Assembly: GCA_037439425.1 (NCBI GenBank)
Contig: JBBIWA010000022.1
Span: 1 to 64,000, forward strand
DNA: 64,000 nucleotides
DNA from: Acidobacteriota bacterium
GTDB lineage: Bacteria > Acidobacteriota > Blastocatellia > RBC074
Reading direction: 5' to 3'
The stretch's first letter is position 1; every line of letters begins with the position of its first letter. Shown piece by piece: positions 142 through 63,125 of the stretch. A model generated the notes under the pieces. The model saw nothing but the letters and a program-made list of their open reading frames with translations, did no database searches and was not told the DNA's origin. Made by a program: the position numbers and the translations under genes.

Positions 142-369
142 GGCCTTGCGCCGTGGAGCTTCACGTTTGTGGCTACACACGCACGGGCAGGAGCATTTTG
201 AGAGGCCACGGCCTTGTGCCGTGGAGCTTCACGTTTGTGGCTAGCCATCGACGTTTTTTCCTAAACGCTCTCAATTCGCGCTTACAGTAGCCAGGATCGT
301 GAGACTCAACTTTGAATTTCGGATTGCGAATTGCGAATTGCGAATTTGGTAGCCAGGATCGTGAGACTC
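142..369. repeat. Cluster of four roughly 20-34 bp repeats, core GAG(C/T)(T/C)TCACG-N4-TGGCTA. Two direct copies (142-175, 210-243; 33/34 identical, 34-bp spacer) and two inverted copies (288-307, 350-369).
   Basis: Direct reading of the sequence. Copies of the same core recur at 5187-5293. Confidence 0.8.
308..349. repeat. Tandem heptamer GAATTGC/GGATTGC array (aatttcggattgcgaattgcgaattgcgaatttgg), flanked by the inverted 20-mers tagccaggatcgtgagactc
   Basis: Seen directly. The same unusual motif recurs at 61837-61912. Confidence 0.8.
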
Positions 370-5495: not shown

Positions 5496-5545
5496 GCCAG
5501 TGACGGCCAGTGACGGCCAGTGACGGCCAGTGACGGCCAGTGACG
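5496..5545. repeat. Perfect tandem repeat (GCCAGTGACG)x5, 41 bp upstream of the ECF sigma start codon
   Basis: Five exact 10-bp units seen directly. The ORF-track N-terminal extension of the sigma ORF is translation of this repeat. Confidence 0.95.
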
Positions 5546-5586
5546 GAAGGAAGCAGGCCGCAAGCGCGCGACCGAAAGCGAGGCAG

Positions 5587-8086: not shown

Positions 8087-11065
8087 ATGAAGAAGAAGGT
8101 TGTGATGAAATCATTACTGGCCTTATGCGGGATGCTCATTTTATATCTCCCGGCTCTAGCTCAGGGGGTAACTCAGGTGCGCGGGCAGATAGTAGATGAG
8201 CTGGATGCGGTAATCCCAGGGGCTAATGTGACACTGGTTTCCCCTGATGGCAAGCAGCGCTCGACTGTGACCAATGCTGCTGGCGAGTTTGTTTTTACCA
8301 ATGTCAGTCCAGGCACCTTTAACCTGGTGGTAGAATTTAAAGGATTCCAAACTCACATCGAGAACGATCTCAAAGTCCCGCTCGCTCAGTCGCCGCTCAA
8401 GATTGTGATGAGAGTAGCAGCGGTCAATGTCGAGACTGAAGTCACCAGCGAGAATCAAGGAGTATCGGTTGAGCCGGACCAGAACATGAGCGCGATCGTT
8501 CTAGGTGAGGAATTCATCCAGACCTTACCGGACAATGAAGAGGACTTGCGCGCTTATCTGGAGGCGCTGGCCGGACCGGCTGCCGGTGGCGCTACGGGCG
8601 GCCAGGGCGGTGTGCAGATTCTGGTGGACGGTTTCAGCGGTGGCCGCTTGCCGCCGCGTGAAGCCATTATGCAAATTCGCATTAACCAGACTCCTTTCTC
8701 CGCCGAGTTCTCCAATCCGGGGTTCAATCGTATTGAGATCATCACCCGGCCGGGCAATGATCGCTGGCGTGGCAATGTCAATCTCGGCTTCCGCAACTCA
8801 GCGCTGGATGCGCGCAACGCTTTTGCGCTGACCAAACCGGAGCTGGATCAGAAGCGTTACGCGCTTTACTTCGGTGGTCCGATCGTTCGCAAGAAGATGT
8901 CCTTCTCGATCAATGCTGAGCGCACCATGCTTGATGGCAGCGGAACCGTGCGCGCGCAAACGCTCAGCGGGCCGTTCGTTGCCAATGTGCCATCGCCATT
9001 TGAGAACTTCTTCTTCGGCGTGCGCGCCGATTACCTGATCAATAACCGGAACACGCTCAATCTCAACTACAACTATCGTTCATCCGAGAGACAAAACACA
9101 GAGTTCGCCGTGCGGTTTGGCGGCGGCTTCGGTGGCTTTGGCGGTGGTTTCGGTGGTGGTGGCGGCGGTGGCGGCAATAACTTTTATCTGCCGGAGCGCA
9201 CCTCGAACAACGAAAGCGGAGGTCATACGCTGCGGCTGGCAGAAACCTTTATCGTCAACTCGCGGCTGATTCACGAAGCGCGATTGCAAGTTGAATATAA
9301 TACGAGCGAGTCGACAGCTAATGGTCAGGGTGTGGCGATCAATGTCCTGGATGCCTTCTTCGGTGGTGGTTCGACCTGTTGTCCGAACCGATCGCGCACC
9401 AGCACCGTCGAGTACCAGGACTACCTGACTTTCACCTACAAGAAACACACTATCAAAGGTGGCTTCCAGATCGAGTATGAAAACATCCGGGACTTGAGCG
9501 CGAACAATTTCAACGGGACTTATACCTTCTCCAGTCTGGAGCAGTATCGCCGCGTCCTCAATGGCGAGCGCATCAATCCCAATGATCCCAACAGCCCGCT
9601 CGTGCGCCCGACCCAGTTCACAATTAATCGTGGCGACCCGCTGATTCAGTACAGCCAGTACGAAGCTTCCTGGTTCATTCAGGATGATATTCGAGTGAGC
9701 CAGTCGTTCACGCTTTCGGTGGGATTGCGTCATGAGTTCCAGAATCATCTGGGCGACAAAATCAACTTCGCTCCCCGCCTTGGCATCGCCTGGTCGCCCT
9801 TCAAGGATCGCAAGACTACCATCCGCGCTGGCGGCGGTGTTTTCTATAACCGTTTGAGTGGCAACCTGTATGAAAATACGCTGCGCTACAATGGCGTCCG
9901 GCAGGAGAGTATTATCATTCGCAACCCGATCTTTAATCCCGAAGACCCCCTCGCTGGTGACCCGGTAATTGACCGGCAGCGCACGATCATTCGGGTGCTG
10001 GACCCCAAGCTGAAAGCGCCCTATTCGATCAACTTCAACGTCGATGTTGAACGGCAACTCCCTTGGAACGTGGTTGCCACAGTCGGCTACATTCATACGA
10101 CTGGCATTCATCAATTCCGCTCGCGCAATATCAACGCCCCCCTACCGGAGACGCACCTGCGGCCCGACCCGACGCAAGGCAACATTTACCAGATCGAATC
10201 TTCTGCCCGCTCTGAATATAATGGCCTGCGTTTTGGAATCAATCGGCGTTTCAGCCCACGCCTCTTCTTCTTCGGCAACTACATGCTTTCGTGGGCTCGG
10301 AATGATTCCGACGGCGCGCTTTCGCTTCCAGCGGACAATTACAATCTGCGACCTGAATGGGGGCCGGCTTCGATTGACCGCCGGCACTTCTTCACCTTTG
10401 GTGGAAATATCACCTTGCCTTATAACTTCCGCATCGGCCCATTTATCACCATCAGCTCAGGCCGGCCATTCAATATCACCACAGGGCGCGATGATAATGG
10501 CGATACCCAGATCAATGATCGGCCAGCGGGAGTGACGCGCAATGCTGATTTGCCGCCAGGAGTGGTGGCGGCTTATCCGAATGGGCTGCGCGCCATCGGA
10601 CCGGGAGCATTCAATGTCAATCTCAACGTGAGTAAAACCTTCAGCTTCGGACAGCGGAATGGTCAGCAGGCGCAGGCCGGGCAAACCGATCCAGGCGCGG
10701 GACAGGAGCAAGGCCCTGGTGCCGGTGGACGCGGCGGGCCGGGCGGATTTGGCGGTGGACGCGGCGGGCCAGGCGGATTTGGCGGTGGTGGACGTGGTGG
10801 TCCGGGTGGATTCGGTGGTGGCGGACGCGGCGGGCCGGGTGGATTCGGTGGTGGCGGACGCGGCGGGCCAGGTGGATTTGGTGATTTCGGCGGTGGTAGT
10901 GAGAGTGGCCGCTACAGCCTCACGCTTGGCGTGAACATTACCAATCTATTCAACAACGTCAATTTGGGCCAATTCAGTGGTGTGTTGACCTCGCCTTTCT
11001 TCGGGCGAGCTAACAGTGCTGGGCCAGCTCGTCAGTTTGAGTTCTCTCTCAGATTCAGTTTCTAA
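8087..11065 (+). CDS. TonB-dependent receptor with N-terminal carboxypeptidase-regulatory-like domain and Gly-rich low-complexity insertions
   Basis: Signal peptide, CarboxypepD_reg-like N-terminus, plug-like region, beta-barrel ending in a C-terminal F (RFSF), 992 aa. Confidence 0.85.
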   Translation: MKKKVVMKSLLALCGMLILYLPALAQGVTQVRGQIVDELDAVIPGANVTLVSPDGKQRSTVTNAAGEFVFTNVSPGTFNLVVEFKGFQTHIENDLKVPLAQSPLKIVMRVAAVNVETEVTSENQGVSVEPDQNMSAIVLGEEFIQTLPDNEEDLRAYLEALAGPAAGGATGGQGGVQILVDGFSGGRLPPREAIMQIRINQTPFSAEFSNPGFNRIEIITRPGNDRWRGNVNLGFRNSALDARNAFALTKPELDQKRYALYFGGPIVRKKMSFSINAERTMLDGSGTVRAQTLSGPFVANVPSPFENFFFGVRADYLINNRNTLNLNYNYRSSERQNTEFAVRFGGGFGGFGGGFGGGGGGGGNNFYLPERTSNNESGGHTLRLAETFIVNSRLIHEARLQVEYNTSESTANGQGVAINVLDAFFGGGSTCCPNRSRTSTVEYQDYLTFTYKKHTIKGGFQIEYENIRDLSANNFNGTYTFSSLEQYRRVLNGERINPNDPNSPLVRPTQFTINRGDPLIQYSQYEASWFIQDDIRVSQSFTLSVGLRHEFQNHLGDKINFAPRLGIAWSPFKDRKTTIRAGGGVFYNRLSGNLYENTLRYNGVRQESIIIRNPIFNPEDPLAGDPVIDRQRTIIRVLDPKLKAPYSINFNVDVERQLPWNVVATVGYIHTTGIHQFRSRNINAPLPETHLRPDPTQGNIYQIESSARSEYNGLRFGINRRFSPRLFFFGNYMLSWARNDSDGALSLPADNYNLRPEWGPASIDRRHFFTFGGNITLPYNFRIGPFITISSGRPFNITTGRDDNGDTQINDRPAGVTRNADLPPGVVAAYPNGLRAIGPGAFNVNLNVSKTFSFGQRNGQQAQAGQTDPGAGQEQGPGAGGRGGPGGFGGGRGGPGGFGGGGRGGPGGFGGGGRGGPGGFGGGGRGGPGGFGDFGGGSESGRYSLTLGVNITNLFNNVNLGQFSGVLTSPFFGRANSAGPARQFEFSLRFSF
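10724..10887 (+). repeat. In-frame tandem 30-33-bp repeats encoding (GGRGGPGGFGG)x5 near the receptor C-terminus
   Basis: Five near-identical nucleotide units seen directly. A second Gly run (GGGFGGFGGGFGGGGGGGG) lies at about 9118-9180. Confidence 0.9.
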
Positions 11066-14445: not shown

Positions 14446-14938
14446 TTATGCCTGTAGATGCGCTTCGAGAAACCAGAGGGCTTTGTCCAGCCCGCGTGAA
14501 ATCTCGGTGAATAAATCAGCCGTGTCGGCGTCACCGTGACTGGCCGCTGCGTCAATCGTTGCGCGAGTGGTGGCTGCCAACTGGGCGTAGCGGACCGCTA
14601 ACGCCTCGACGCTGGGCAGGCTGGCAACCGTCTCCAGCGGATATTCGGGCAGCCGCGAGGCCTCAGCTGCCAGGCGCACAGTGCCCAGCGCCGTTCCCCC
14701 TAGCGATGTTGCCCGCTCGGCTATCAGGTCTACGTACTCTGCTGTCTCGGCGGCCAATTTATCGAACAGCTCATGCAATTGGTAAAACTGCGCGCCCTTG
14801 ACATTCCAGTGAGCCTGTTTGATCTGACTGTAGAGATCAAAGGTATCGGCAAGCTGCTGGTTGAGCAGTGCCACGATCTTTTCTCGAACCTCAGGCGCCA
14901 AGTCAATGCGCGTGCTGAATGTTTTTGCTTTCGCCATC
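14446..14938 (-). CDS. dps: Dps (DNA starvation/stationary-phase protection) ferritin-like protein
   Basis: Dps ferroxidase-centre motifs (QAHWNVKG..HELFD..EYVDLIAER). The start is set at MAKAKTF. The longer ORF-track N-terminus is translation of a repeat element. Confidence 0.85.
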
Positions 14939-15014
14939 TTGAAGCCTCCATCGGAAAATTCTGGGCAGGCACGCCTGCGGGCGTGCAGCTTTCCCTTAAG
15001 CGAGCCGCTACCAG

Positions 15015-15065
15015 AGACCAAGCACGCTAGAAGCGTGCGTACCCAGGGTTTCATCAGGGCATCGT
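15015..15065. repeat. Half-copy of the MITE/REP-like GCACGC-hairpin element (aagcacgctagaagcgtgcgtacccagggtttcatcaggg)
   Basis: Matches the right-hand end of the elements at 26546-26826, 28620-28967, 42909-43034 and 62148-62252. Confidence 0.7.
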
Positions 15066-15090
15066 CCGTATTCAAAGAAGCAACTTGGGC

Positions 15091-15525
15091 CTAACGCGAT
15101 TTAGCCGTTGGGGTCCGTCTACCGCGCCGCTGCCCCTTGCGCTGACACGCCCTGCAAGTCCCGACGAAATCCAGACGATGGTCCTCGACTTTGAAGCCGC
15201 TGCGCGTCAGTGAGGAGCGAGCCAGAGCCGCGAGCGCTTTGGTTACCGGAACGGCTGCGTCTTCAATGCTGCCGCAGAGGCGGCAGATCAGATGATAGTG
15301 AGACTCTTTGGCCAGCTCGAAGTGACTGCTGGGGTGGCCGAAGTCAATTTCGCGCACCTTACCCTGAGCCACCAGGATGCGCAGGTTGCGATAAACCGTG
15401 CCCAGACTCAGCCGCGGCAGCTTGGGTTTGGCGAGCGCATAGATCTGGTCGGCGGTCAGGTGGCCACCGTGACCCCGCATGACTTCCAGGATCGTCTCCC
15501 TCTGTTTGCTGCGTCGGTATTGCAT
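15091..15525 (-). CDS. Fur family transcriptional regulator (PerR-like by gene context)
   Basis: Fur-family HTH plus HHxxC..C metal sites (SHYHLICRLCGS, CRAC). Directly upstream of dps-rbr. Confidence 0.8.
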   Translation of the reverse strand: MQYRRSKQRETILEVMRGHGGHLTADQIYALAKPKLPRLSLGTVYRNLRILVAQGKVREIDFGHPSSHFELAKESHYHLICRLCGSIEDAAVPVTKALAALARSSLTRSGFKVEDHRLDFVGTCRACQRKGQRRGRRTPTAKSR

Positions 15526-25180: not shown

Positions 25181-26527
25181 CTACCGCCCGGAGCCGGAAG
25201 ACCTCTGGCCGATGCAGAAGAGATGCTCGTCGGTCCGGATGAAGAGCTGCCCGTTGGAGATGGCGGGAGAAGCCACCATTCGCTCGCCGAGCTGATTGCG
25301 CGCCAACAGGCGAAACTGCCGCCCGGCCTCAAGCACAATCGTTTCCCCTAGCTCGCTCGTCAGGTAAATCTTGCCATCGCCGGCGACGGGCGAAGCGCTG
25401 AAGATCCCTTCGATCCGTTCTTGCCACACCTTCTCTCCTGTCTTTGCATCAACGCAGGTCGCAATGCCAGCATCATTGGCCATATAAATCAGGCCGCGAT
25501 AGTAGAGCAGCGAAGAGATATAGGGCGCGCCCGTGGGGACGAGCCATTGCACGTGGGTGCGCGAGATGTCGCCGCGGCCGCCGAGACGAATCGCCATGTA
25601 GGGGCCACTGCGATAGCCGCGACTGGCATACAGCAGGCCGCCCTCAGCCGATGGCACCGGGATAGGAAAGCGATTCGCTTCGCCGGTGTACCAGAGTAGT
25701 TTGCCGGTAGCTGGGTCGTAAGCATCAATGCGCTCGCTGGCGTTCACAATCAACTCGTCACCGCCAGGACCGCTCACCACTGTAGGCGTGCTGTAAGAGC
25801 GGCTGCCTTTGCCCCGGTCCACCTTCCATCTCTCTTTGCCGGTCTTCTTATCTAATGCGAGCAGGTAAGAAGCAGGCACGTGATCGCAGAGCAAGATCAA
25901 CAAATCACGGTAGAGCGCTGGCGAGCTGCCATGCCCCCATTCAATCTCAAACGGTGAATATTCTTTGCCCAGATGGCGCTGCCAGACGAGTTCCCCTCTC
26001 ATACTCAAAGCCACGAGCTGGCCATTCCCGAACCAGGCATAGATCATCTCCCCATCGGTGACCGGGCTGGGGCTGGCCAGATTGTGTTTCTGGTGCACGG
26101 CCGGAAGCTGGCCTTCGGCCTCTAGCCGATACTCCCATAGGCGACGACCATCAGCACGATGAAAAGCTTCAACCAGGAAGTAAACCTGCTTCGTCTTCTG
26201 CCCGGTTGCAGCAGCTTGTTTGCCGAGAGGTTTTTCTGCGGCTGCCTCCTGGCCCCGAGCCAGAGTGGGATGGGATCCGGGCCGCAACGCAGATTCTCCT
26301 ACTTGCGACGTGACGATGACGCGATCACCCCAGACAATCGGTGCGGAAACGCCCAGGCCGCTTAACGGGGCTTTCCAGGTAACTTCATCTTTACTCCAGC
26401 GCACTGGCAGCCCTCTTTCTTGGGAGACTCCAGTCCCGAATGGTCCCCGCCATTGCGGCCAGTTGTCGGTGTAGACCACACTGGCCAGACTCATTAACAC
26501 GACGATGGTTGTCGACCAAATGCGCAT
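25181..26527 (-). CDS. PQQ-like beta-propeller repeat protein (BamB-like), secreted
   Basis: Signal peptide and repeated W/G-rich blade motifs. Confidence 0.8.
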   Translation of the reverse strand: MRIWSTTIVVLMSLASVVYTDNWPQWRGPFGTGVSQERGLPVRWSKDEVTWKAPLSGLGVSAPIVWGDRVIVTSQVGESALRPGSHPTLARGQEAAAEKPLGKQAAATGQKTKQVYFLVEAFHRADGRRLWEYRLEAEGQLPAVHQKHNLASPSPVTDGEMIYAWFGNGQLVALSMRGELVWQRHLGKEYSPFEIEWGHGSSPALYRDLLILLCDHVPASYLLALDKKTGKERWKVDRGKGSRSYSTPTVVSGPGGDELIVNASERIDAYDPATGKLLWYTGEANRFPIPVPSAEGGLLYASRGYRSGPYMAIRLGGRGDISRTHVQWLVPTGAPYISSLLYYRGLIYMANDAGIATCVDAKTGEKVWQERIEGIFSASPVAGDGKIYLTSELGETIVLEAGRQFRLLARNQLGERMVASPAISNGQLFIRTDEHLFCIGQRSSGSGR

Positions 26528-26545
26528 CTGACTCCTCCAGAAAAT

Positions 26546-26826
26546 CTTGGGTACGCAAGCATCCTTGCGTGCCTGTCTTCGTCGAGCAAGTAATTACCTT
26601 CGGACCAAGCACGCTAGAAGCGTGCGTACCCAGGCTTAGAAAATCCCTGGGAGCGCACGCATCCTTGCGTGCCGGTCTAGTTAAGAGCGCAAATCCTGAG
26701 AATGCTGGGTCCGCACGCCGGAGGCGCGCCTGTCTTGGTGAAGCTGGTGCTTGCCTGCAAAGCGAGCACGCTCGCAAGCTTGCGTACCCAGGATTTTCGT
26801 TGCTCTCAGGGCGTCGCGCGAGCGAC
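26546..26826. repeat. Two adjacent MITE/REP-like elements (26546-26634 and 26646-26826) with terminal inverted repeats AAAATCYTGGGTACGCACGC / GCGTGCGTACCCAGG and internal GCACGC-loop-GCGTGC hairpins
   Basis: Seen directly. ORF-track ORFs across this region (26391..26777, 26440..26841) are translations of the repeat. Confidence 0.85.
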
Positions 26827-27061
26827 CTGAATGACTTCTAGGGAAAACTGACCAACCTGGTTCTATAAACAGGCCGTGCCACTAATTTCCAAACAAGCTC
26901 TTAGTGAGCTTCGTGGTTCGATTTTCACCACTCGCTTCTTCGGTAGCGGCCAGGGCTATATACGGAGTCTGCCAGCCTCTGGATTCAAATAAGTACCACT
27001 GCCGAGAGAGCGCTGGGAGGGCGAAGCGAAGTGGCAGCTGCTTTGCCATTGCCGAGGTGCT

Positions 27062-28354
27062 CTAAGGCGATCCTTCGCCGATGACCGAACGCTGGGGATC
27101 AACCAGCAGCCACATGGCCACGCCAAAAGCGAAGACTGCGGCTGTGATGTAGAAAGGGAGCGTCCAGGAATTCAACCGCTCGACGGCATAGCCCACCACC
27201 AGCGGCGCCATCGCTCCGCCAAGGTTGCCCACGGTATTCATAAAACCGGTGACTACACCTGCATTGCGCCGCCCGACATCCAGGCAGACGGCCCACGCCG
27301 CGCTGATGGTCACCGTCTGACAACACAGCGCTACTGCCAGTAGCAGTGCTGCCAGCAGGCGGTCTTCTGCCTTCGCTACTGCAACAAGCATCAGCCCGCT
27401 CGCGGCATAACCAATTGCGCCTACACCACAGCGCGCCAGCTTCAGCTTCCCCGTACGCTGCACCAGCCAATCCGTGATCCAGCCGCCGAACCAAAAAGCT
27501 CCAGCGCTGACCACCCACGGCAATGCTGAAAACAATCCTGCATAGCCCGTCGAGAAGCTGCGTGCCTTGAGCAAATAGGTCGGCAACCAAGTGAGGTAAA
27601 AATAAAGCCCATAGCCATAAGCGAAATACATCCCGCAGATGAAGGCCAGATTCGCGCTGCGCAAGAGCCTGGACCACGGCACACGATGCGAGTGATCAAG
27701 CTGGCCTCTATCACCCTGATCAGAGCGGATCAACTTCAACTCTTCCGCATTGACTGCTGGATGTTCTTCAGGCCGATCTCGATACCAACGATACCAGATC
27801 ACAGCCCACACTACGCCGAGCAAGCCAAATTCAACGAAGGTGAGTCGCCAGCCTTGCCACTCAACCAGCTTGAAGACCAGCGGCGTGCTGATCGCTGAGC
27901 CAAGGGCCAAGCCCAGAAAGGCCACGCTCAGGCTGCGCCCCTGCTCCGAAGCTGGAAACCAGCGTGAAACGGCACGCGCAATATTGGGGAATGCTCCGGC
28001 TTCGCCCGCGCCAAACAAAAAGCGCACGACGAGGAGCGAGATGAAGCCGGTCGCAGCGCCACTCAACGCCGTGAAAGCCGACCACCAGAGCACGATGCGC
28101 GTGAGCGTCTGGCGCGCGCCAAAGCGATCACCCAGCCATCCGGTCGGGACCTCGAAGAGGGCATAAGCCAGCGTAAAAGCGCTAAAGACATAGCCCATCT
28201 GAGAAGGTGAAAAGCCAAATTCGCTGGTGATGGCGGGCGCAGCCGCTGAGATGCAAAGGCGGTCTAGATAAGTGATCACGGCCAGAGTAAAGATCAACCA
28301 TAAAATGGTGTGACGCGTCTTGGTCGCAGTGAGAGAGTGAGCGGATTCGATCAT
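27062..28354 (-). CDS. MFS transporter (anion:cation symporter-like)
   Basis: 12-TM organisation and MFS motifs (GWLGDRFGAR). Confidence 0.85.
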   Translation of the reverse strand: MIESAHSLTATKTRHTILWLIFTLAVITYLDRLCISAAAPAITSEFGFSPSQMGYVFSAFTLAYALFEVPTGWLGDRFGARQTLTRIVLWWSAFTALSGAATGFISLLVVRFLFGAGEAGAFPNIARAVSRWFPASEQGRSLSVAFLGLALGSAISTPLVFKLVEWQGWRLTFVEFGLLGVVWAVIWYRWYRDRPEEHPAVNAEELKLIRSDQGDRGQLDHSHRVPWSRLLRSANLAFICGMYFAYGYGLYFYLTWLPTYLLKARSFSTGYAGLFSALPWVVSAGAFWFGGWITDWLVQRTGKLKLARCGVGAIGYAASGLMLVAVAKAEDRLLAALLLAVALCCQTVTISAAWAVCLDVGRRNAGVVTGFMNTVGNLGGAMAPLVVGYAVERLNSWTLPFYITAAVFAFGVAMWLLVDPQRSVIGEGSP

Positions 28355-28619
28355 AGGTTAAGTAGGTGTTGCGCTCTATCCTTACTGAGCCTGCTTACTT
28401 TACGAGAAGTCACGGAGTGAAGGAAAGACGGCAGCTTACAGCTCGGCGTTTGAAGAGTCAATCACCGCCTGGCGCGGTTTATTCTTTTCTCAAGGCCGCA
28501 GCCTGGTGCTATACTGCGACAAGCCATGGCTTGATCATCCACAAACAACCGGCATAGGACGGCAGCCACAAAGCCAGCTTTGCCGTGGGTCAAGGACTCA
28601 TTCAGGAGGAGTCGTTCAG

Positions 28620-28967
28620 GTCGCTACGGCGACACACGGAAAGGATAAAAAAATCCTGAGAGCGTACGCTGCGAGCGTGCTTGGTCTGAAGATGACGACT
28701 CGCTTAATGGAAATAGGCACGCTCACAAGCGTGCTTGCTTTGCAGCATTGACGCGCTTGCCGCAAGTCGAGCACGCAAGGATGCGTGCGCTCCCAGGACC
28801 TTCCGAGGAGTCTTTCATCTCGCGTAGCGACGCCCAGAAAAATGATGAAAACCTGGGTACGCACGCTTGCGAGCGTGCCACTTTCTGGCGATAGCTCGCT
28901 CGTCGAAGCCAAGCACGCAAGGATGCGTGCGTACCAGCCAAGCACGCAAGGATGCGTGCGTACCCAG
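28620..28967. repeat. Two further copies of the MITE/REP-like element (about 28620-28796 and 28800-28967) in the divergent MFS / di-heme promoter region. The second carries a tandem duplication of the AAGCACGCAAGGATGCGTGCGTACC hairpin.
   Basis: Seen directly. Confidence 0.85.
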
Positions 28968-28987
28968 GAGTTTCCGAGGAGGACGAG

Positions 28988-30259
28988 ATGAAGACGATCA
29001 AAATACTGCCGGTGCTATTTTGCTGCGCGACTCTCACCAGCTTCATACTTCGTGCTGGAGGCCAACTCATCGCGCCACAGAGACCCGGCGCAGCTCAATC
29101 GAGCGCGGTCGAGGCCCCCATCGAAGCGCCCGCCGGATTCGACAACAAGACGAACGGGTCTATCACTCAGACCGAGTTTGAAATCGCTCTGGCAACTTTC
29201 GTCGAGCAGGAAGAAGTGGATGAAGGCCTCGGCCCGGTCTACAACGCTCAGTCCTGCGGCGAATGCCATCAGTCCCCCGTGACCGGTGGCATCAGTCAGA
29301 TCAACGAACTCCGCGCTGGTTCGCTGGACAAGCGAAGTAACTTCGTGGAAGCGCCTGGTGGTTCGCTGATCAACGACCGGGCCATTCATCCTGCTATCCA
29401 GGAGCGCGTGCCGGCCAGCGCGACAGTGGTCACAACACGCACCGTGCTCAACACGCTTGGTGATGGTTTTGTCGAAGCTATTCCCGACGAGGCCATCATC
29501 GCGGTGGCCAAAAGACAGAAGGAGACAACTAAAGGCCGCATTGCCGGGCAGGTGGTTATGGCGCGGGTGCTCGAAGCGGGCACAGTGATGCGCGTTGGGC
29601 GGTTCGGCTGGAAGAGCCAGCATGCCAGTCTCGTCTCATTTTCCGCCGATGCATATCGCAATGAGATGGGCATTACCAGTCCTCTCTTCCCGACCGAAAA
29701 CAGTTCGCTCGGGCGCTCGGTGGCGAATTTTGATCCGGTGGATGATCCGGAAGACGATGGCACAGACGTAGAAATCTTTGCGCGCTTCATGCGCGCGACA
29801 AAAGTTCCGCCGCGCGCCGAAGGCTGCGAAACCTGTCCCCGGCCTGATCCGCGCGTCGTCACAGGATCGGCGATCTTTGATGCCGTCGGCTGCAGTATCT
29901 GTCACGTGCGGACGTTCGTCACCGCGCCAGCCGGAACTAAAATAAATGGCGGCAACTTCACGATCCCGGAAGCTCTGGGCAACAAAATCATTCATCCCTT
30001 CAGCGACTTCCTGCTGCACGACGTGGGCACTGGCGATGGCATTGTGCAGAACGAGGACCAGACGACGGCGCGAAAACTACGTACGCCGCCGCTGTGGGGC
30101 GTGCGCACACGGACGCGCCTGATGCACGATGGGGCTTCGCTGACGTTTGAAAGCGCCATCCCCCGCCATCTGGGCGAGGCCAAACAGGTGAATGAGAAGT
30201 TCAGAAAACTCGACCGGAGACAGAAGGAAGTGCTGATCGCCTTTTTAGAATCTTTGTGA
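28988..30259 (+). CDS. Di-heme cytochrome c family protein (DUF1111 / putative thiol oxidoreductase-peroxidase type), secreted
   Basis: Two CxxCH motifs (CGECH, CSICH) and a signal peptide. The start is set at MKTIKIL, after the repeat element. Confidence 0.65.
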   Translation: MKTIKILPVLFCCATLTSFILRAGGQLIAPQRPGAAQSSAVEAPIEAPAGFDNKTNGSITQTEFEIALATFVEQEEVDEGLGPVYNAQSCGECHQSPVTGGISQINELRAGSLDKRSNFVEAPGGSLINDRAIHPAIQERVPASATVVTTRTVLNTLGDGFVEAIPDEAIIAVAKRQKETTKGRIAGQVVMARVLEAGTVMRVGRFGWKSQHASLVSFSADAYRNEMGITSPLFPTENSSLGRSVANFDPVDDPEDDGTDVEIFARFMRATKVPPRAEGCETCPRPDPRVVTGSAIFDAVGCSICHVRTFVTAPAGTKINGGNFTIPEALGNKIIHPFSDFLLHDVGTGDGIVQNEDQTTARKLRTPPLWGVRTRTRLMHDGASLTFESAIPRHLGEAKQVNEKFRKLDRRQKEVLIAFLESL

Positions 30260-38248: not shown

Positions 38249-39499
38249 CTAAAGGCCGGAGATTCCTACTGCACTGCAGGCGTGGCACCGAGCCCTGCCT
38301 GAGTCGCTTCGGTGGGTTCCTGCTGCTGGCGGCGTTATGCCGCTCACTTCACAGGCGCAACGGGCGTGCCCCGCCCTGAGAATGTTGATCGCGCCAACCA
38401 GATCGGCGTTGGCCTCAAACCCGCACTCGACACATTGGAACTGCGCTTGCGACGGGCGGTTGTCCGCTGAGACATGGCAGCAAGCTGGACAGGTGCGGCT
38501 CGTGTTCTGCGGCGGCACAGCAATCAGCCAGCCGCCCTTCCATGCCAGCTTGTATTCCAGTTGGCGGCGGAACTCGAACCAGCCTTGATCAAGGATGGAT
38601 TTGTTCAGGCCGGACTTGGCCCGAACGTTTCTGCCCGGCTCGACCAAGGTGCCCGCCGCTGACTGGGACATGTTGCGCACCTGCAAGTCCTCGATACACA
38701 CCATCGCGTGGTTTTGGCTGATCGTGGTCGTGGCTTTGTGCAGGAAGTCGCGGCGGGCGTTGCCGATGCGGGCGTGGATGCGCTGAACGCGGGCTTTGGC
38801 TTTCCTCCAGTTGTTGCTGAACTTCACCTTGCGGCCCATGGCCTGCTGCGCTTTACGCAAAGCAGTTTGATGCCGCCTGAAGCTGTTGATCGGCTCGATT
38901 ACTGTGCCGTCCGAGAGCGTGGCGAACCGCGCCACCCCCATGTCGATGCCGATTGCGCCGCCGTTGGGAATCGGCTGTTCGACCTCGCGTTCGGTCTGGA
39001 TCGATATGTACCACTTGCCACAGGACTGGCTCACGGTGACGTTCTTCACCGCGCCTAGCACCGCCCGGCTGTTGCGGTAACGCATCCAGCCGAGCTTAGG
39101 CAGGAAGAGGCGGCTGTTGTGCTGCTCCAGCTTGATCTGCTTCGGGTCGGGGTAGCGGAAGCTGTCGTGCCGCCCCTTCTTCTTGAAGCGCGGAAAGCCT
39201 GCCCGCTTGGCAAAGAAGTTGGCATAAGCCCTCTCCAAATCCTTGAGCGCCTGCTGCAACGGATGCACAGGCGCATCGGCCAGCCATGCCGTGTCCGGGC
39301 TGTTGCGCCACTCGGTGAGCAGCTGGCACAAGTCGGCATAGCCAAGCTTCTTCTCGCCCTTCTCGTGGCGTTCTTTTTGCAACGCCAGCGCCCGGTTGAA
39401 CACGAACCGGCACGAGCCAGCAAAGCGGCGCATCTGGTGCTCCTGCTGGCCGTTGGGCCGAAGCTCGAATTTGAAGGCTTGGAGCCGTTGCATGTCCAT
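38249..39499 (-). CDS. tnpB: TnpB (IS605 OrfB family RNA-guided endonuclease), apparently intact
   Basis: Start MDMQRLQAFKFELRP, RuvC-I IGIDMGV, RuvC-II CIEDLQV, zinc finger CPACCH..CVECGF, RuvC-III NADLVGAINI. Confidence 0.8.
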   Translation of the reverse strand: MDMQRLQAFKFELRPNGQQEHQMRRFAGSCRFVFNRALALQKERHEKGEKKLGYADLCQLLTEWRNSPDTAWLADAPVHPLQQALKDLERAYANFFAKRAGFPRFKKKGRHDSFRYPDPKQIKLEQHNSRLFLPKLGWMRYRNSRAVLGAVKNVTVSQSCGKWYISIQTEREVEQPIPNGGAIGIDMGVARFATLSDGTVIEPINSFRRHQTALRKAQQAMGRKVKFSNNWRKAKARVQRIHARIGNARRDFLHKATTTISQNHAMVCIEDLQVRNMSQSAAGTLVEPGRNVRAKSGLNKSILDQGWFEFRRQLEYKLAWKGGWLIAVPPQNTSRTCPACCHVSADNRPSQAQFQCVECGFEANADLVGAINILRAGHARCACEVSGITPPAAGTHRSDSGRARCHACSAVGISGL

Positions 39500-39514
39500 A
39501 GGATAGTTTGGGCT

Positions 39515-39930
39515 ATGAGCGAAGACAACGATATCCGATATGGACGGCACTGCGTTTTCAAGATGCACGTCCATTGGGTCTTTGTGACGAAATACCGCCG
39601 CAGGGTGTTCGACGGCGACGCTATCAACCGGCTGCGCACGATGAGCGCCCAAGGCCTGCGCCAACTTCGAAGCGCAACTGATCGAGATGGATGGCGAGGA
39701 CGATCATGTGCATTTGCTGGTCGAATATCCGCCGAAGGTGGCTGTCTCCAACCTGGTGAACAGCCTCAAGGGCGTGTCCAGCCGTCTGCTGCGCAAGGAG
39801 CGGGTCCGACATCTTGAAGCGCTACTGGAAGGGTGTGCTGTGGTCGCCGCCCTACTTCGCCTCATCCTGCGGCGGCGCTCCAATCTCCATCGTGCGCCAG
39901 TACATCGAACAGCAGCGGACGCCACACTGA
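39515..39930 (+). pseudogene. tnpA: IS200-type TnpA (Y1 transposase) with two +1 frameshifts (about 39665 and 39800)
   Basis: Frame 2: MSEDNDIRYGRHCVFKMHVHWVFVTKYRR. Frame 0: IEMDGEDDHVHLLVEYPPKVAVSNLVNSLKGVSSRLLRKE. Frame 1: ILKRYWKGVLWSPPYFASSCGGAPISIVRQYIEQQ. Confidence 0.75.
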
Positions 39931-40138
39931 AACCCAAGGACGCCTTCGCCGTCCGTGCTATCCTTCCCCGCCCTGAACGGCGAGGCTTGCCGCGCACCGG
40001 GTCAATTCATCCCACCGGGATGGCAATTCCTGCGCTGCCACACTACTCGTAAGCAACAGTAAAGTCATTAGCAGTTTCATCTCGGCACTCCTTTTGAAGA
40101 ATGGGATCACCAGTTGGGCTCCTCACCATTTTGTCAAA

Positions 40139-41877: not shown

Positions 41878-42897
41878 TCACCTTTTCACCTCTTCACCCC
41901 TTTCGTCCCTTTCATTCACCATCCTTTCCTCCCGGGCGCGCTGATAAATAAATTGCGCTGCGGCGACGTCCTCGATACCGAGACCGAGTGATTTGAAGAG
42001 CGTGATCTCGCTGGCGGTGGTGCGGCCTTCTTTGGCTCGAATGATGATTTCGCCGAGCGTCGCGTGGATGTGATCCGGAGTGAAGGCTCCTTCACTGATC
42101 GGGATCAAAATGTCTCCGGCTTCAGCCAGGGCGGATTCGACCGAATCAACGATCAGCTTGCTTCGCTTCACCGCCTGCGTATCCAGCTCTCGCGCGTCCG
42201 GCAGAGAGGCCCCGACAGCATTGAGATGAGTTCCGGGAGCGAGCCACTCACCATAAAGGATTGGCGTTTTAGCAGCTGTGACGGTGACAATGATGTGCGC
42301 CTCACGGACTGCCAGCTCAGGCTGCCGGACCGGGATTACCTCAAGCTGGTAGCGCTCAGCCATCTCTTCAGCCAGCGCCCGCGCGTGTTCTGGCGTGCGG
42401 CTCCAGATGCGTACGCGCTCGATCTTCCTGACACAGAGTATGGCTTCGAGGTGGGTGCGGGCTTGCACACCGGAACCGAGGATGGCTAACTCAGTGGCCG
42501 ATTCATTAGCCAGATGAGCGGTCGCGACGGCCGAAACGGCTGCGGTGCGGATGGCAGTGGTCGCTCCACCATCCAGCAGCGCGAGCAAGCGCCCGGTGCC
42601 GGCGTCAAATAACAAGACGGCCCCCTGATGAGTATCGAGGCCTAGCCGGGCATTGTTGGGGAAGACTGTCACCGCTTTCAGGCCGAGCGCGGCGGGTGTC
42701 TGCAACTGTGCAGGCATCAATCCTAAAATCCCTGCGCCATCTTTGGTAAACATGAAAGTGCGCAACGGCTGGACTGCTTCGCCCCGCGCCAGCGCCGCCA
42801 GCGCCGTTTCCATTACCCGCACGGCTTCTTTCATCGGAAACAGGCGCGACACTTCAGCCGCGTCAAGCACCAGGATCTCGTGAGAACTTACCGTCAT
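41878..42897 (-). CDS. Ornithine cyclodeaminase / mu-crystallin family protein
   Basis: OCD-family Rossmann region (LAILGSGVQARTHLEA). The start is set at MTVSSHEIL. The ORF-track extension is translation of the repeat element. Confidence 0.85.
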   Translation of the reverse strand: MTVSSHEILVLDAAEVSRLFPMKEAVRVMETALAALARGEAVQPLRTFMFTKDGAGILGLMPAQLQTPAALGLKAVTVFPNNARLGLDTHQGAVLLFDAGTGRLLALLDGGATTAIRTAAVSAVATAHLANESATELAILGSGVQARTHLEAILCVRKIERVRIWSRTPEHARALAEEMAERYQLEVIPVRQPELAVREAHIIVTVTAAKTPILYGEWLAPGTHLNAVGASLPDARELDTQAVKRSKLIVDSVESALAEAGDILIPISEGAFTPDHIHATLGEIIIRAKEGRTTASEITLFKSLGLGIEDVAAAQFIYQRAREERMVNERDERGEEVKR

Positions 42898-42908
42898 CCG
42901 CCTCCTCG

Positions 42909-43034
42909 GAAAATCCTGGGTACGCACGCATCCTTGCGTGCCTGCCTTCGTTAAGCAAGCCATTACCGCAGAGCGAGCACGCTAGAAGCGTGCGCTCCCA
43001 GGTTTTCATCATTTCTGGGCGTCGCAGCGCGACA
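42909..43034. repeat. Complete copy of the MITE/REP-like element plus the conserved flank TTTTCATCATTTCTGGGCGTCGCAGCGCGAC
   Basis: Seen directly. The terminal inverted repeats GGAAAATCCTGGGTACGCACGC / GCGTGCGCTCCCAGG are present. Confidence 0.85.
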
Positions 43035-43251
43035 TGAATAACTCCTATGAAAATGAACCGCGAAGGGCTCGGCCGCAGCACAACGAAGAGGGGGAAAGAT
43101 AGGCTTCGTGTGCTTAGTGACCTTCGTGGTTTGGTTTTCATTGTTTCCCTGCGTCACTCCTCGGGTGGTCTGTTAATGGCAGCAGCTTATTATCAGACAA
43201 GGGACGCAGTCAAGGTAAGGCAGGTACTTGCGGCGGTGACTTTCGATGGGT

Positions 43252-61912: not shown

Positions 61913-63125
61913 TGTATGAAGGTCGCTTCCTCGATTGCCAGATCAAGGGAAGAACCAAAGCTGCTATCGCGATTTGTCCCAATTCTACTCCGAGATTGAA
62001 GGAAAGCAAGGGCAGCGCTACGCTACTGCCATCTGAACTCAGACCCAGCTCGCCGAACACGGTCGCAAAGCCGAAGCTAGGCACCAGACCAAAGGCGAAG
62101 GTCAACAGCCAGCTATGTTTCAACTCACCTTACCAGATATGCGGCCCCTGGGAGCGCACGCATCCTGCGTGCCAGGCTCTCACGCAGGATTGCCTCCAAG
62201 CCACAGGGCTGCTCCCCCGAAGATCAGCACGCAAGATGCTTGCGCTCCCAGGGCGACCACATCCAAAAAGTCTCCTTACCGAAAAAGCCTCATTGGTGGC
62301 CGCACGAAATATATTTTCCAGCCCGGCGTAGATGATTGAGATGGCAATCAGCGGCTCGATCACTTCTGGCGGAATCCGCATCAGGTCCAAGGTGGCCAGC
62401 GCTAGCGTGAGCGAATGGGCCAGCGTGAATTATGTGCTGACCCTCACGGCGGATCGAAAGTGGCTGCCCGCAAGCAACAGGGCCAACAGAAAGGCCAGGT
62501 GATCGTATCCGGTCAGAATGTGCTCGACACCAAGAACCAAAAACTGCTGGAAGGAGCGAGGCCGGGCAGCGGCTGCTCGCAGTTGCGCCAGATTGCCTTC
62601 AAATCCGTCTTGGCTGGAATCGAGCAATCGCTCGGCCAGGACGCTTCCCTGCCCCTCGCGCACCGAAAGATGCTGCCGGTGGCCGCGCGCCAGCTTGTGA
62701 ATGATCGTTGAGCGTAAGCTGAGCTGCGTTGCCTTGCCAGGGAATTTCAAAAAGAAATGAAGAGCATTGCTATCATCAAACTGCACTCGCACTTCGCTGG
62801 CCAGTACGCGCTGCCCATCGAACTGGATTTCAATTGCCTCCGCCGCCAACCTCGCCAGCCGTGATTGCGCAGCCGCCAATTCAGTTTGGGCGAGCTGTCG
62901 GTTCTGATTGGTGTCTGGCAGGATCAACGTTTCAATCTCACTCCGAGCGAAGGTGAGATGCGCAGCCAGATGATCTTGTTTCACTCGCAGCTCAACCCCA
63001 CTCAATACTGGATCGTGCGCCAAGGCTGTGGCGACTGCCAGGAAGAGAAAGACAAGCAACAAGCAGACAAAGGGAGCAAAGCTGCTCGGCGTGAACTGCT
63101 CGGCTTGATTATGGGCGTGGCGCAT
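61878..63125 (-). pseudogene. HupE/UreJ-family membrane protein, disrupted by two in-frame TAA stops (62430-62432, 62130-62132) and a 105-bp in-frame MITE-like insertion
   Basis: One frame contains HILTGYDHLAFLLALLLAG, FTLAHSLTLALA, IEPLIAISIIYAGLEN and FNLGVELGQIAIAALV across three ORF-track ORFs. Confidence 0.6.
62148..62252. repeat. MITE/REP-like element copy (CCTGGGAGCGCACGC...GCGCTCCCAGG) inside the hupE reading frame
   Basis: Seen directly. The length is 105 bp, which is 35 codons. Confidence 0.8.

What the first reader, a model, noticed from the sequence alone, without database searches (positions are those of the whole stretch)
26546..28967. Family of MITE/REP-like elements with 20-bp terminal inverted repeats and double GCACGC hairpins, clustered on both sides of an MFS transporter gene
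At least seven copies occur in 64 kb: 15015-15065 (half copy), 26546-26634, 26646-26826, about 28620-28796, 28800-28967, 42909-43034 and 62148-62252. They share the ends AAAATCCTGGGTACGCACGC ... GCGTGCG(T/C)(A/T)CCCAGG(A/T)TTT and internal 7-bp-stem hairpins (GCACGCA-AGGA-TGCGTGC, or a TAGAAG-loop variant). A conserved right flank TTTCATCA..CTGGGCGTCGC.GCGAC is usually present. All copies are intergenic except one inside a pseudogene. Four copies bracket the MFS transporter gene (27062-28354) in both of its flanking intergenic regions. Translating the element yields recurring peptides (GTQGCVRTQDF, CVRAWHAGCVRS). These create spurious N-terminal extensions on dps, the di-heme protein and the cyclodeaminase in the ORF track. 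The element could be a non-autonomous transposon, a REP/BIME-type structural repeat, or a small-RNA gene family.
Basis: seen in the sequence. Interest (0 to 1): 0.7.

Follow-up and report, generated by a model that had tools for sequence, protein, structure and literature searches.

The report
REPIN-type palindromic repeats beside gene starts
The repeats are real and belong to a family of small hairpin-forming, probably mobile DNA elements (REP doublets, "REPINs") that is widespread in soil Acidobacteria and Verrucomicrobia; its matching transposase, found in other genomes, is often built in-frame into essential genes.

Summary
The window holds seven loci with 14 REP half-sites. Each half-site is a GCACGC-loop-GCGTGC hairpin plus a 9-nt tail, G(C/T)(T/A)CCCAGG. 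Half-sites are usually paired tails-outward into 88-143 nt doublets that fold far better than shuffles.

The same stem and tail recur in at least 98 genome stretches, mostly Blastocatellia MAGs and a few Verrucomicrobiota. Loops are genome-specific. Doublets are never tails-inward and show no target-site duplication. This is REP/REPIN architecture, not a classical MITE, and no Rfam family matches.

A metagenome scan found RayT-type tyrosine transposases flanked tails-out by the same hairpins. That meets the defining REP-RAYT link for the family, but not for this genome, because the window holds no RAYT.

A sister lineage (88-90% nt identity) lacks both units upstream of the di-haem gene. That is a true empty site.

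Locally the elements form BIME-like mosaics with an extra GTCGC hairpin arm. In four of four arrays they end 1-3 nt from the Shine-Dalgarno sequence of the downstream gene. I propose, weakly, insertion 3' of GGAG with regeneration of that motif.

Unexpected by-product: the RayT clade is often in-frame inside MetH, AlaRS and RecG.

The parts
14955..15047 (-). REP doublet (REPIN) between the fur-family gene and dps. The left REP is degenerate (GCACGC-CTGCGG-GCGTGC, tail CTGGGCAGG). The right REP has a TAGAA loop. The element ends 17 nt before the dps ATG at 14937.
   Evidence: z -3.5
15048..15075 (-). Degenerate distal arm (GTTTCATCAGGGCATCGTCCG...). It ends about 15 nt after the stop of the fur-family gene.
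26541..26640 (-). Gene-proximal REPIN with loops ATCCTT and TAGAA. Its end GAAAAT is followed by CTGGAGGAGTCAG and the ATG of the PQQ-like beta-propeller gene at 26527. This copy is absent in the sister lineage.
   Evidence: z -4.9
26641..26792 (-). REP cluster with REP(-) at 26646-26672, a degenerate REP(-) at 26704-26729 and REP(+) at 26766-26792.
26793..26835 (-). Distal arm ATTTTCGTTGCTCTCAGGGC-GTCGCGCGAGCGAC-CTGAATGACTTCTAG. The hairpin is at 26813-26826.
28606..28654 (+). Distal arm of unit 1 upstream of the di-haem gene: GGAGGAG|TCGTTCAG-GTCGCTACGGCGAC-ACACGGAAAGGATAAAAAAAT. The hairpin is at 28620-28633.
28655..28797 (+). REPIN of unit 1 with three hairpins. It ends GCTCCCAGG and is followed by ACCTTCCGAGGAG.
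   Evidence: z -2.7
28798..28851 (+). Junction and distal arm of unit 2: CCTTCCGAGGAG|TCTTTCATC-TCGCGTAGCGA-CGCCCAGAAAAATGATGAAAA.
28852..28968 (+). REPIN of unit 2. The right REP is duplicated in tandem (hairpins at 28913-28930 and 28942-28959).
   Evidence: D3; z -6.0
28969..28990 (+). AGTTTCCGAGGAGGACGAG followed by the ATG (28988) of the di-haem oxidoreductase gene. The Shine-Dalgarno sequence sits directly after the element.
42898..42914 (-). Shine-Dalgarno sequence and spacer of the ornithine cyclodeaminase gene (ATG at 42897). On the gene strand it reads ATTTTCCGAGGAGGCGG-ATG.
42915..43002 (-). REPIN with loops ATCCTT and TAGAA and a discordant tail pair TAC/GCT.
   Evidence: z -4.3
43003..43053 (-). 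Distal arm TTTTCATCATTTCTGGGC-GTCGCAGCGCGAC-ATGAATAACTCCTATGAAAAT, with the hairpin at 43021-43033. On the gene strand it reads ATTTTCATAGGAG|TTATTCATG-TCG..., that is, a Shine-Dalgarno-like motif followed by an 8-codon mini-ORF.
62147..62252 (.). Bare REPIN with no distal arm and no Shine-Dalgarno sequence. It lies inside a HupE/UreJ-like gene that is split into three same-frame ORFs.
   Evidence: (z -4.9)

Best explanation
**What the elements are.** They are REPINs, that is, doublets of a REP sequence.
- Each REP is a 6-7 bp GC hairpin, GCACGC-loop-GCGTGC.
- A conserved single-stranded tail of 9 nt, G(C/T)(T/A)CCCAGG, follows the hairpin.
- Two REPs lie in inverted orientation with tails outward, around a spacer of 35-60 nt.

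**How they most likely move (inferred).** They are non-autonomous. A RayT-type HUH/Y1 tyrosine transposase encoded elsewhere in the genome would bind the hairpin on single-stranded DNA, cut next to it, and rejoin it elsewhere. This leaves no target-site duplication.

**Local arrangement (shown).** In this genome the REPINs are heterodimers of two loop subtypes, AAGGAT and TAGAA. They have been built into BIME-like mosaics by adding a third, variant hairpin arm (GTCGC-n3-4-GCGAC-GCCCAGA) and an A/T-rich linker (AAATGATGAAAA).

**Position and consequence.** All four intergenic arrays point the same way relative to the neighbouring gene and end 1-3 nt before its Shine-Dalgarno sequence. They are therefore expected to be transcribed as structured 5' leaders (inferred). 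Any effect on expression would be secondary.
For: **Shown**
1. The repeat is far above chance, and the copies fold with z-scores of -2 to -6.
2. The same stem and tail occur in at least 98 genome stretches, mostly Blastocatellia and other Acidobacteriota MAGs plus three Verrucomicrobiota MAGs. Loops are genome-specific.
3. Of about 114 clusters, 64 are tails-outward doublets and none is tails-inward. Doublet lengths peak at 87-89 and 103-108 nt.
4. In other genomes the doublets are near-perfect hairpins, with dG of -40 to -60 kcal/mol.
5. The two loops of a doublet are exact reverse complements in 36 of 73 cases, spread over at least 9 different loop sequences.
6. There is no target-site duplication and no target motif.
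7. RAYT link:
   - A pattern requiring the hairpin 175-205 nt upstream of M-P-[DENK]-H-x-H hit 36 metagenome stretches.
   - Most encode a Y1_Tnp domain with intact HUH and Y-x3-NP motifs.
   - These genes are flanked tails-out by GCACGC hairpins.
   - L128 carries the window's own tail: CTGGGAGC...GCTCCCAAG.
   - Relatives are annotated RayT.
8. Acidobacterial and verrucomicrobial RAYTs of another clade are flanked by REPs with the same layout, a GGGT(G/A)C tail plus hairpin.
9. Insertion polymorphism: four contigs of a sister lineage (88-90% nt identity) have a 256-nt MFS-DHOR spacer with no element, against 633 nt here. They also carry one unit instead of two REPINs upstream of the PQQ-like gene.
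10. One copy sits inside a broken gene.
Against: - No RAYT is encoded in the window or in the 98 genome stretches. The cognate enzyme of this genome was therefore not seen.
- The RayTs found carry mostly a C(C/T)GGGGAGC tail, one base different from CCTGGGAGC. Their named relatives are Verrucomicrobiota, not Acidobacteriota.
- The canonical GTAG head of classical REPs is absent.
- Window copies are diverged (63-88% in register). Two of seven doublets have discordant tails, so recent activity of these particular copies is not shown.
- Family-wide the elements sit nearer to stop codons (median 13 nt) than to starts (median 86 nt) by crude gene calls. The start-codon adjacency in this window therefore needs a separate explanation.
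Confidence: 0.75

Rival explanations
1. The composite unit (distal GTCGC hairpin arm + REPIN + TTTTCCGAGGAG) is the true mobile unit. It would behave like an IS200/IS605-type non-autonomous element (PATE-like), with two features:
- asymmetric subterminal hairpins;
- insertion exactly 3' of a GGAG target, meaning a Shine-Dalgarno sequence on the sense strand, with a new GAGGAG at its own 3' end.

The gene would then keep a ribosome-binding site at the same spacing, and tandem arrays could grow.
For: - Five independent sites show the same order and orientation: dps, PQQ-like, DHOR and OCD in the window, plus L064 in another genome. In each...AGGAG|T(C/T)nTTCA-hairpin ... REPIN ... TTTC(C)-GAGGAG is followed 4-6 nt later by ATG.
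- At DHOR, two units are bounded by three GAGGAG copies.
- Removing TCGTTCAGG...CCGAGGAG restores ATTCAGGAGG-8 nt-ATG. This has the same spacing as the sister's empty site, ATTCGGGAGG-8 nt-ATG.
- The ends of the composite are not inverted repeats of each other. That fits a Y1 enzyme and not a DDE enzyme.
- TTTTCCGAGGAG-like motifs are almost confined to element junctions.
Against: - Only five independent sites are available.
- The dps copy lacks a clear left GGAG.
- The PQQ left flank reads TAGAAG.
- The bare REPIN at 62147 and the family in other genomes lack the arm and show no target motif.
- A 5-7 nt duplication of GAGGAG, or unequal recombination, gives the same picture.
- No enzyme with these ends was found.
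Confidence: 0.25
2. The elements are a cis-regulatory 5'-leader RNA, or a small-RNA family, that co-regulates dps, the di-haem peroxidase-like gene, the PQQ-like propeller and the cyclodeaminase. An iron or oxidative-stress regulon is one possibility.
For: - All four arrays lie directly upstream of start codons and in one orientation.
- A Fur-family gene precedes dps.
- A sigma-70-like promoter at 28487-28515 would place both DHOR units in the 5' UTR.
- The structures are stable.
Against: - No Rfam match at gathering or permissive thresholds.
- The orthologous DHOR leader in the sister lineage has no element at all.
- The same element sits inside a broken gene.
- In L064 it sits upstream of an unrelated small secreted protein.
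- Family-wide the copies lie mostly next to stop codons.
- The stems never vary, so there is no RNA-specific covariation.
Confidence: 0.08
3. The elements are a classical MITE: an internally deleted DDE-type insertion sequence with 20-bp terminal inverted repeats, moved by cut-and-paste with target-site duplication.
For: - Terminal inverted repeats of 15-35 nt are present.
- Size is 88-143 nt.
- Presence/absence polymorphism exists.
Against: - Perfect flanking direct repeats of 2-10 nt occur at chance frequency in 72 doublets.
- 42 singlet REPs and tandem REP arrays exist.
- The family spans a whole class and two phyla with genome-specific loops.
- The only gene found between such ends is a Y1 RayT.
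- The IS200/IS605 remnant in the window has unrelated ends.
Confidence: 0.04
4. The elements are immobile structural repeats kept by the host, for example as mRNA stabilisers or as nucleoid or gyrase binding sites. They would spread only by recombination.
For: - Stem and tail are conserved across phyla.
- Placement is close to gene ends.
- Window copies are diverged.
Against: - Gain or loss at orthologous sites within about 10% nucleotide divergence.
- Insertion into a coding gene.
- A transposase flanked by the same sequences.
Confidence: 0.08

Closest known systems
REPIN-RAYT systems (Bertels and Rainey 2011, PMC3116915; E. coli TnpA_REP/REPtron, reviewed in PMC6006769)
   Same: - Short GC-rich hairpins (REPs) paired in inverted orientation into doublets of about 100 nt that form a long hairpin.
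- Many extragenic copies.
- No target-site duplication.
- A Y1/HUH transposase flanked by the same REPs.
- Largely lineage-specific sequence variants.
   Different: - No GTAG head. The conserved single-stranded part is a 9-nt tail, CCTGG-G(T/A)(A/G)C.
- Hosts are Acidobacteriota and Verrucomicrobiota rather than Proteobacteria.
- The RayT ORF reads through its flanking REPs and is often in-frame inside host genes.
- The RAYT of this particular genome was not seen.
BIMEs of E. coli (bacterial interspersed mosaic elements; Bachellier et al. 1994, cited in PMC6006769)
   Same: Mosaics of different REP subtypes in alternating orientation, joined by conserved linkers. Here these are AAGGAT-loop, TAGAA-loop and GTCGC-stem variants joined by the AAATGATGAAAA linker. 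Tandem growth of units is also seen.
   Different: - Sequences are unrelated.
- IHF or gyrase binding was not tested.
- E. coli BIMEs lie mostly after stop codons, whereas these abut ribosome-binding sites.
TIRYT/TIRtron repeats of Acidobacteria (Di Nocera et al. 2013, PMC3733652)
   Same: RAYT-like genes in Acidobacteria are flanked by inverted repeats that can found repeat families. I confirmed that the A. capsulatum gene is flanked by GGGT(G/A)C + hairpin repeats.
   Different: - The hairpin differs: a 10-bp stem CCCACATCTC.
- The RAYT clade differs: about 170 aa, M-P-x-G-L-x-R-Y-Q N-terminus.
- Those repeats have low copy number.
Correia/NEMIS elements of Neisseria and other 5'-UTR MITEs
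   Same: Small inverted-repeat elements that often sit in 5' leaders next to genes and are co-transcribed as hairpins.
   Different: Correia elements have TA target duplications, carry promoter and IHF sites, and are thought to derive from a DDE system. None of these features is seen here.
IS200/IS605 family and its PATE derivatives
   Same: Single-strand HUH chemistry, subterminal hairpins, no TSD, and insertion 3' of a short target. This is the logic proposed for the composite unit.
   Different: The IS200/IS605 remnant in the window (38249-40052) has unrelated ends. No TnpA or TnpB was found between REP ends.

Membership tests
REP / REPIN | Short (20-40 nt) GC-rich imperfect palindrome present in many, mostly extragenic copies | tested here: met
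   - 14 half-sites in 64 kb.
- 12 hairpins against 0.18 expected.
- 6 of 7 loci are intergenic.
REP / REPIN | Two REPs in inverted orientation around a spacer, able to form one long hairpin (REPIN) | tested here: met
   - 64 of about 114 clusters are tails-out doublets and none is tails-in.
- Loops are complementary in 36 of 73 doublets.
REP / REPIN | Conserved GTAG tetranucleotide at the 5' foot (classical GTAG REPs, PMC3733652) | tested here: not met
   The foot reads G(T/A)(A/G)C preceded by CCTGG. The family is therefore not a GTAG-type REP.
REP / REPIN | A RAYT (Y1/HUH) gene flanked by the same REPs (REPtron) | tested here: inconclusive
   - Met for the family in other genomes: 36 metagenome stretches with Pfam Y1_Tnp. 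L128 carries the CTGGGAGC...GCTCCCAAG tails.
- Not seen in this window or in the 98 Blastocatellia stretches.
- The rest of this genome could not be read.
REP / REPIN | No target-site duplication | tested here: met
   In 72 doublets, perfect direct repeats of 2-10 nt occur at shuffle frequency.
REP / REPIN | Presence/absence differences at orthologous sites | tested here: met
   The sister lineage (L143, L147-L149) lacks both DHOR units and one PQQ REPIN.
MITE (DDE-derived) | Terminal inverted repeats | tested here: met
MITE (DDE-derived) | Target-site duplication of fixed length | tested here: not met
MITE (DDE-derived) | Parent IS with the same ends encoding a DDE transposase | tested here: not met
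   No recurrent transposase appears near the REPs in 98 loci. Only Y1 RayT was found between such ends.
BIME | Mosaic of distinct REP subtypes in alternating orientation with conserved linkers | tested here: inconclusive
   - Three hairpin subtypes and a conserved linker occur in 4 window units and in L064.
- The sample is too small to define linker classes.
BIME | Binding of IHF, gyrase or Pol I | not testable with these tools
   Needs biochemistry.
Known structured RNA family (Rfam) | Match to a curated covariance model | tested here: not met
   No hit at gathering score. Only chance-level hits appear at E up to 10.
IS200/IS605-type PATE | Asymmetric ends with subterminal hairpins, and insertion 3' of a fixed short target | tested here: inconclusive
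   Five sites are preceded by AGGAG and end in GAGGAG, and one empty site is compatible. There are too few sites and no enzyme was found.

The most novel reading that the evidence does not exclude
The reading has two parts.

1. **The transposase partner.** The REPs of this window would be the dispersed partners of a RayT lineage that persists by living in-frame inside essential genes, with its own flanking REPs translated as linker peptides. The host genes are MetH, AlaRS and RecG. This arrangement makes loss of the transposase lethal or at least costly. It would explain how REPIN-RAYT systems are inherited vertically for very long times.

2. **The local composite.** In this genome the REPINs have in addition become part of a unit that inserts exactly 3' of Shine-Dalgarno GGAG motifs and supplies a replacement motif. 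It can then colonise 5' leaders without silencing the gene.

The in-frame RayT is shown in metagenome contigs. Its presence in this organism, and the Shine-Dalgarno-targeting step, are not shown.
Probability: 0.25. Interest if true: 0.8.

Novelty: new variant of a known kind. Interest (0 to 1): 0.55.

Why it matters
- **Range of the system.** REPIN-RAYT systems have been studied almost only in Proteobacteria. This family extends them to two dominant soil phyla, with a different recognition layout: no GTAG head and a 9-nt CCTGG-GWRC tail.
- **A natural contrast.** The window's strain and its sister lineage differ by presence or absence of the units, so gain and loss can be studied directly.
- **Possible targeting rule.** Abutment on ribosome-binding sites suggests either a targeting rule or a tolerated niche in 5' leaders. 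This bears on how such elements affect gene expression.
- **Annotation and assembly.**
  - The repeats create false N-terminal extensions on neighbouring genes.
  - They break short-read assemblies. Two Logan contigs of this same strain end in them.
- **Persistence of RAYTs.** The in-frame RayT copies in MetH, AlaRS and RecG are under strong purifying selection. If confirmed, they make the question of why single-copy RAYTs persist directly testable.

Tried and rejected
- **Rfam.** Scans at gathering and permissive thresholds found nothing relevant.
- **RAYT in the data held at that point.**
  - Motif searches for HUH and Y-x3-NP found nothing in the window or the 98 genome stretches.
  - tblastn with 12 published RAYT/TIRYT sequences found only the IS200 fragment.
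- **Recurrent neighbours.** All-against-all comparison of ORFs near REPs gave only large housekeeping families and no transposase.
- **Acidobacterial TIRYT clade as partner.**
  - Its genes are flanked by a different hairpin.
  - I kept it only as evidence for a shared 'tail plus hairpin' layout.
- **The window's own IS200/IS605 remnant as partner.** Rejected, because its ends are unrelated.
- **Promoter or terminator role.** Consensus scans were at shuffle level, apart from one promoter-like site upstream of the DHOR units.
- **Mini-ORF in the distal arm (MSRCDAQK).** The ATG is present in only 2 of 5 arms and the frame is not kept, so I do not claim a leader peptide.
- **Fur or IHF boxes in the AAATGATGAAAA linker.** By eye there is no convincing match.
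- **Naming the organism.**
  - Cluster look-ups returned no names.
  - The best named DHOR relatives are Acidobacteria, Blastocatellia and Terriglobia MAGs at 57-65% identity.
  - The class therefore stays uncertain.
- **Distal arm in other genomes.** It was found only in L064 among all loci.
Full report

Yes.
- The 20-nt end AAAATCCTGGGTACGCACGC has 9 matches at up to 3 mismatches, against 0 in 100 shuffles.
- The hairpin GCACGC-N3-12-GCGTGC occurs 12 times against 0.18 expected.
- The repeat finder and an alignment of all copies recover the family at the coordinates given.

Two corrections to the coordinates are needed.
- The 'half copy' near 15015 is a full doublet at 14955-15047, with a decayed left hairpin.
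- The block at 26646-26826 holds three hairpin units plus a flanking arm.

Folded as single-stranded DNA, the seven copies have z-scores of -2.0 to -6.0.

**2. Anatomy**

The basic unit (REP) is a 6-7 bp hairpin, GCACGC-loop-GCGTGC, followed by the tail G(C/T)(T/A)CCCAGG.
- Two units in inverted orientation, tails outward, make a doublet of 88-143 nt.
- In the window the two hairpins of a doublet carry different loops. On the strand of the neighbouring gene, AAGGAT is next to the gene and TTCTA is away from it.
- The spacer (..CTTCGTTAAGCAAGCCATTACCGCAGAG..) is conserved between copies. The doublet therefore propagates as one piece.

Four arrays carry an extra arm on the gene-distal side. It reads (G)AGGAG-T(C/T)nTTCA(T/G)-GTCGC-n3-4-GCGAC-GCCCAGA-AAnGATGAAAA.
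- The GTCGC hairpin followed by GCCCAGA looks like a variant REP in the opposite orientation.
- The whole is therefore a mosaic of REP subtypes with conserved linkers, as in E. coli BIMEs.

**3. Position**

The copies lie upstream of four genes (Pfam):
- dps (14446-14937, minus strand);
- a PQQ-like beta-propeller (25181-26527, minus strand);
- a di-haem oxidoreductase (28988-30259, plus strand);
- an ornithine cyclodeaminase (41878-42897, minus strand).

All four arrays point the same way relative to the gene. Each ends ...CCCAGG-A(T/G)TTTC(C)-GAGGAGG-4 to 6 nt-ATG, which is 12-17 nt from the start codon.

The seventh copy (62147-62252) has no arm. It lies inside a HupE/UreJ-like gene that is broken into three same-frame ORFs.

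**4. Distribution**

- Nearly all are Blastocatellia or other Acidobacteriota MAGs. Three are Verrucomicrobiota (Chthoniobacterales, 'Spartobacteria').
- Stem and tail are constant, while loops are genome-specific: TGGAA, GAGCC, GGGGAC, AAGGAT and others.
- Among 200 half-sites there are 64 tails-out doublets, 42 singlets, a few tandem arrays and no tails-in pair.
- Doublet lengths peak at 87-89 and 103-108 nt.
- In most genomes the doublets are near-perfect hairpins, with dG of -40 to -60 kcal/mol. The window's copies are weaker, at -21 to -39.
- The two loops are exact reverse complements in 36 of 73 doublets, over at least nine loop sequences. This is the kind of paired change expected if the doublet is the replicating unit.
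- Flanks show no target-site duplication and no target motif.
- With crude gene calls, copies lie closer to stop codons (median 13 nt) than to starts (median 86 nt).

**5. The transposase test**

No RAYT is present in the window or in the 98 stretches.

Published acidobacterial TIRYT sequences (PMC3733652, supplement 5) led to the A. capsulatum gene and a verrucomicrobial relative.
- Both are flanked by CCGGGT(G/A)C plus a 10-bp-stem hairpin.
- The layout is the same, but the hairpin is different.

I then scanned metagenome contigs for the GCACGC hairpin 175-205 nt upstream of codons for M-P-[DENK]-H-x-H.
- My estimate of chance expectation for this pattern is below one.
- 36 stretches were found.
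- Most encode one RayT clade (..LPHFERPW..CVMPDHVH..SIKSFTAHEINK..YITRNPW..). Pfam Y1_Tnp is confirmed.
- These genes are flanked tails-out by GCACGC hairpins.
- The usual tail is C(C/T)GGGGAGC / GCTCCCC(A/G)G.
- L128 has CTGGGAGC...GCTCCCAAG, with the GAGTC loop also seen in a dispersed Chthoniobacterales REP.
- L124 has a dispersed GCTCCCAGG REP 41 nt after metH.
- A profile search finds about 2,000 clusters of this clade. Many are annotated 'REP element-mobilizing transposase RayT'. The few with organism names are Verrucomicrobiota.

The defining REP-RAYT association therefore holds for the family. The enzyme of this particular genome remains unseen.

**6. Insertion polymorphism**

The di-haem protein has a 94% identical relative.
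- Its contig (JBRCFO010000023.1, GCA_053490555.1) is syntenic across PQQ-like, MFS and DHOR genes, with 88-90% nucleotide identity.
- Three further contigs of that lineage agree.
- Their MFS-DHOR spacer is 256 nt and has no element. The window's spacer is 633 nt.
- Upstream of the PQQ-like gene they have one decayed unit, where the window has two REPINs plus the arm.
- Removing TCGTTCAGG...CCGAGGAG from the window gives ATTCAGGAGG-AGGACGAG-ATG. This has the same spacing as the sister's ATTCGGGAGG-AACTCGGT-ATG.

**7. How it most likely works**

- *Shown:* REP doublet architecture, absence of TSDs, a RayT flanked by the same hairpins in other genomes, and gain or loss between close lineages.
- *Inferred:* the window's copies are moved in trans by such a RayT through single-stranded hairpin recognition, as established for E. 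coli TnpA_REP (PMC6006769, PMC8266576).
- *More speculative* (probability about 0.25): the composite unit inserts 3' of GGAG and ends in GAGGAG.
  - This would explain the constant orientation, the abutment on ribosome-binding sites at five independent sites (including L064 in another genome), the N+1 GAGGAG copies at DHOR, and why the genes stay translatable.
  - A short duplication of GAGGAG, or unequal recombination, would look the same.

**8. Rivals**

- *Regulatory leader or sRNA family.* This is unlikely as the primary identity. There is no Rfam hit, the units are absent from the orthologous leader, a copy sits inside a broken gene, and the neighbouring genes are unrelated.
- *DDE-type MITE.* Contradicted by the TSD test and by the singlets and arrays.
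- *Purely structural, immobile repeat.* Contradicted by the polymorphism.

**9. By-product**

In about 25 of the 36 metagenome stretches the REP-RayT-REP unit is in-frame inside a long ORF of a housekeeping gene:
- MetH, in the linker before the activation domain (about 14 stretches);
- AlaRS, in a surface loop before ..FELYDTYGFP.. (about 8);
- RecG (3).

Further details:
- The REPs are translated, as ..PGSARGxRA.. at the N-side and ..ACAPR/Q at the C-side.
- Stand-alone copies also read through their REPs.
- Catalytic motifs are intact.
- Where dS could be estimated, it is 0.25-2.7 and dN/dS is 0.07-0.20. In two pairs dS was too saturated to estimate.
- The inserts cluster by host gene. This suggests a few old insertions inherited with the host.
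- I found no paper describing this. Quentin et al. 2018 discarded 'unexpectedly long proteins' as fusions or errors.

**10. Verdict**

This is a real REP/REPIN family with BIME-like local mosaics. It is a new sequence variant of a known kind, in under-studied phyla. It comes with a documented empty site and an unusual, still unexplained affinity for ribosome-binding sites in this genome.

Noticed in passing
L105-L140 (metagenome contigs), e.g. L109 1699-3177, L138, L105; also L141 3001-3654 and L142 3001-3645: A RayT (Y1_Tnp) clade flanked by GCACGC REPs is embedded in-frame inside MetH, AlaRS and RecG. The REPs are translated as linker peptides. For the embedded core, dN/dS is 0.07-0.20. No description was found in the searchable literature.
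   Followed up: partly
window 38249-40052: IS200/IS605 remnant: a TnpB gene (38249-39664, minus strand; NCBIfam guided_TnpB) next to a truncated, frameshifted IS200 tnpA (39687-40052, plus strand). Its terminal hairpin CCGGCC-TAAA-GGCCGG is unrelated to the REPs.
   Followed up: partly
window 61878-63125: A HupE/UreJ-like membrane protein gene is split into three ORFs in the same frame by in-frame stops. The REPIN at 62147-62252 lies inside the middle piece.
   Followed up: partly
window 307-360 and 61826-61879: Runs of a 7-nt unit (TTGCGAA / GCGAATT) occur at two distant places, both in intergenic DNA upstream of genes. This is a second, unrelated repeat family.
   Followed up: no
window 5496-5546: Five perfect tandem copies of the 10-nt unit GCCAGTGACG.
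   Followed up: no
window 9109-9174 and 10720-10914 (inside ORF 8087-11065): 33-nt periodic Gly/Arg-rich coding repeats (GGRGGPGGFGG-like) in a 992-aa ORF.
   Followed up: no
window 15091-15525: A Fur-family regulator gene lies directly upstream of dps, with the REPIN filling almost the whole 153-nt spacer.
   Followed up: no
L099 (start) and L150 (start): Short-read (Logan, SRR11582143) contigs of the same strain end 33 and 48 nt upstream of the OCD and DHOR start codons, inside the REPINs. The repeats break assemblies.
   Followed up: yes
L104 1240-1491 (Acidobacterium capsulatum CP001472.1): The RAYT gene is preceded by four tandem 72-nt units, each carrying the REP CCGGGT(G/A)C-CCCACATCTC-GCn-GAGATGTGGG.
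   Followed up: partly
L147 3161-3241 and L148 5844-5924: The sister lineage carries a different small hairpin repeat (ctacctgGCAGGC-TGAG-GCCTGCcttccaaccgga) in two tandem copies downstream of the DHOR gene. In L143 the DHOR gene is split into 168-aa and 251-aa ORFs.
   Followed up: no
L014, L085, L095 (flanks of REPs): Partial tail duplications directly after the REP, for example CCCAGGtGCGTGCGCCCCCAGG and CCCAGGcGCGTGCGTACCCAGG. They look like repeated cut-and-join events at the tail.
   Followed up: no
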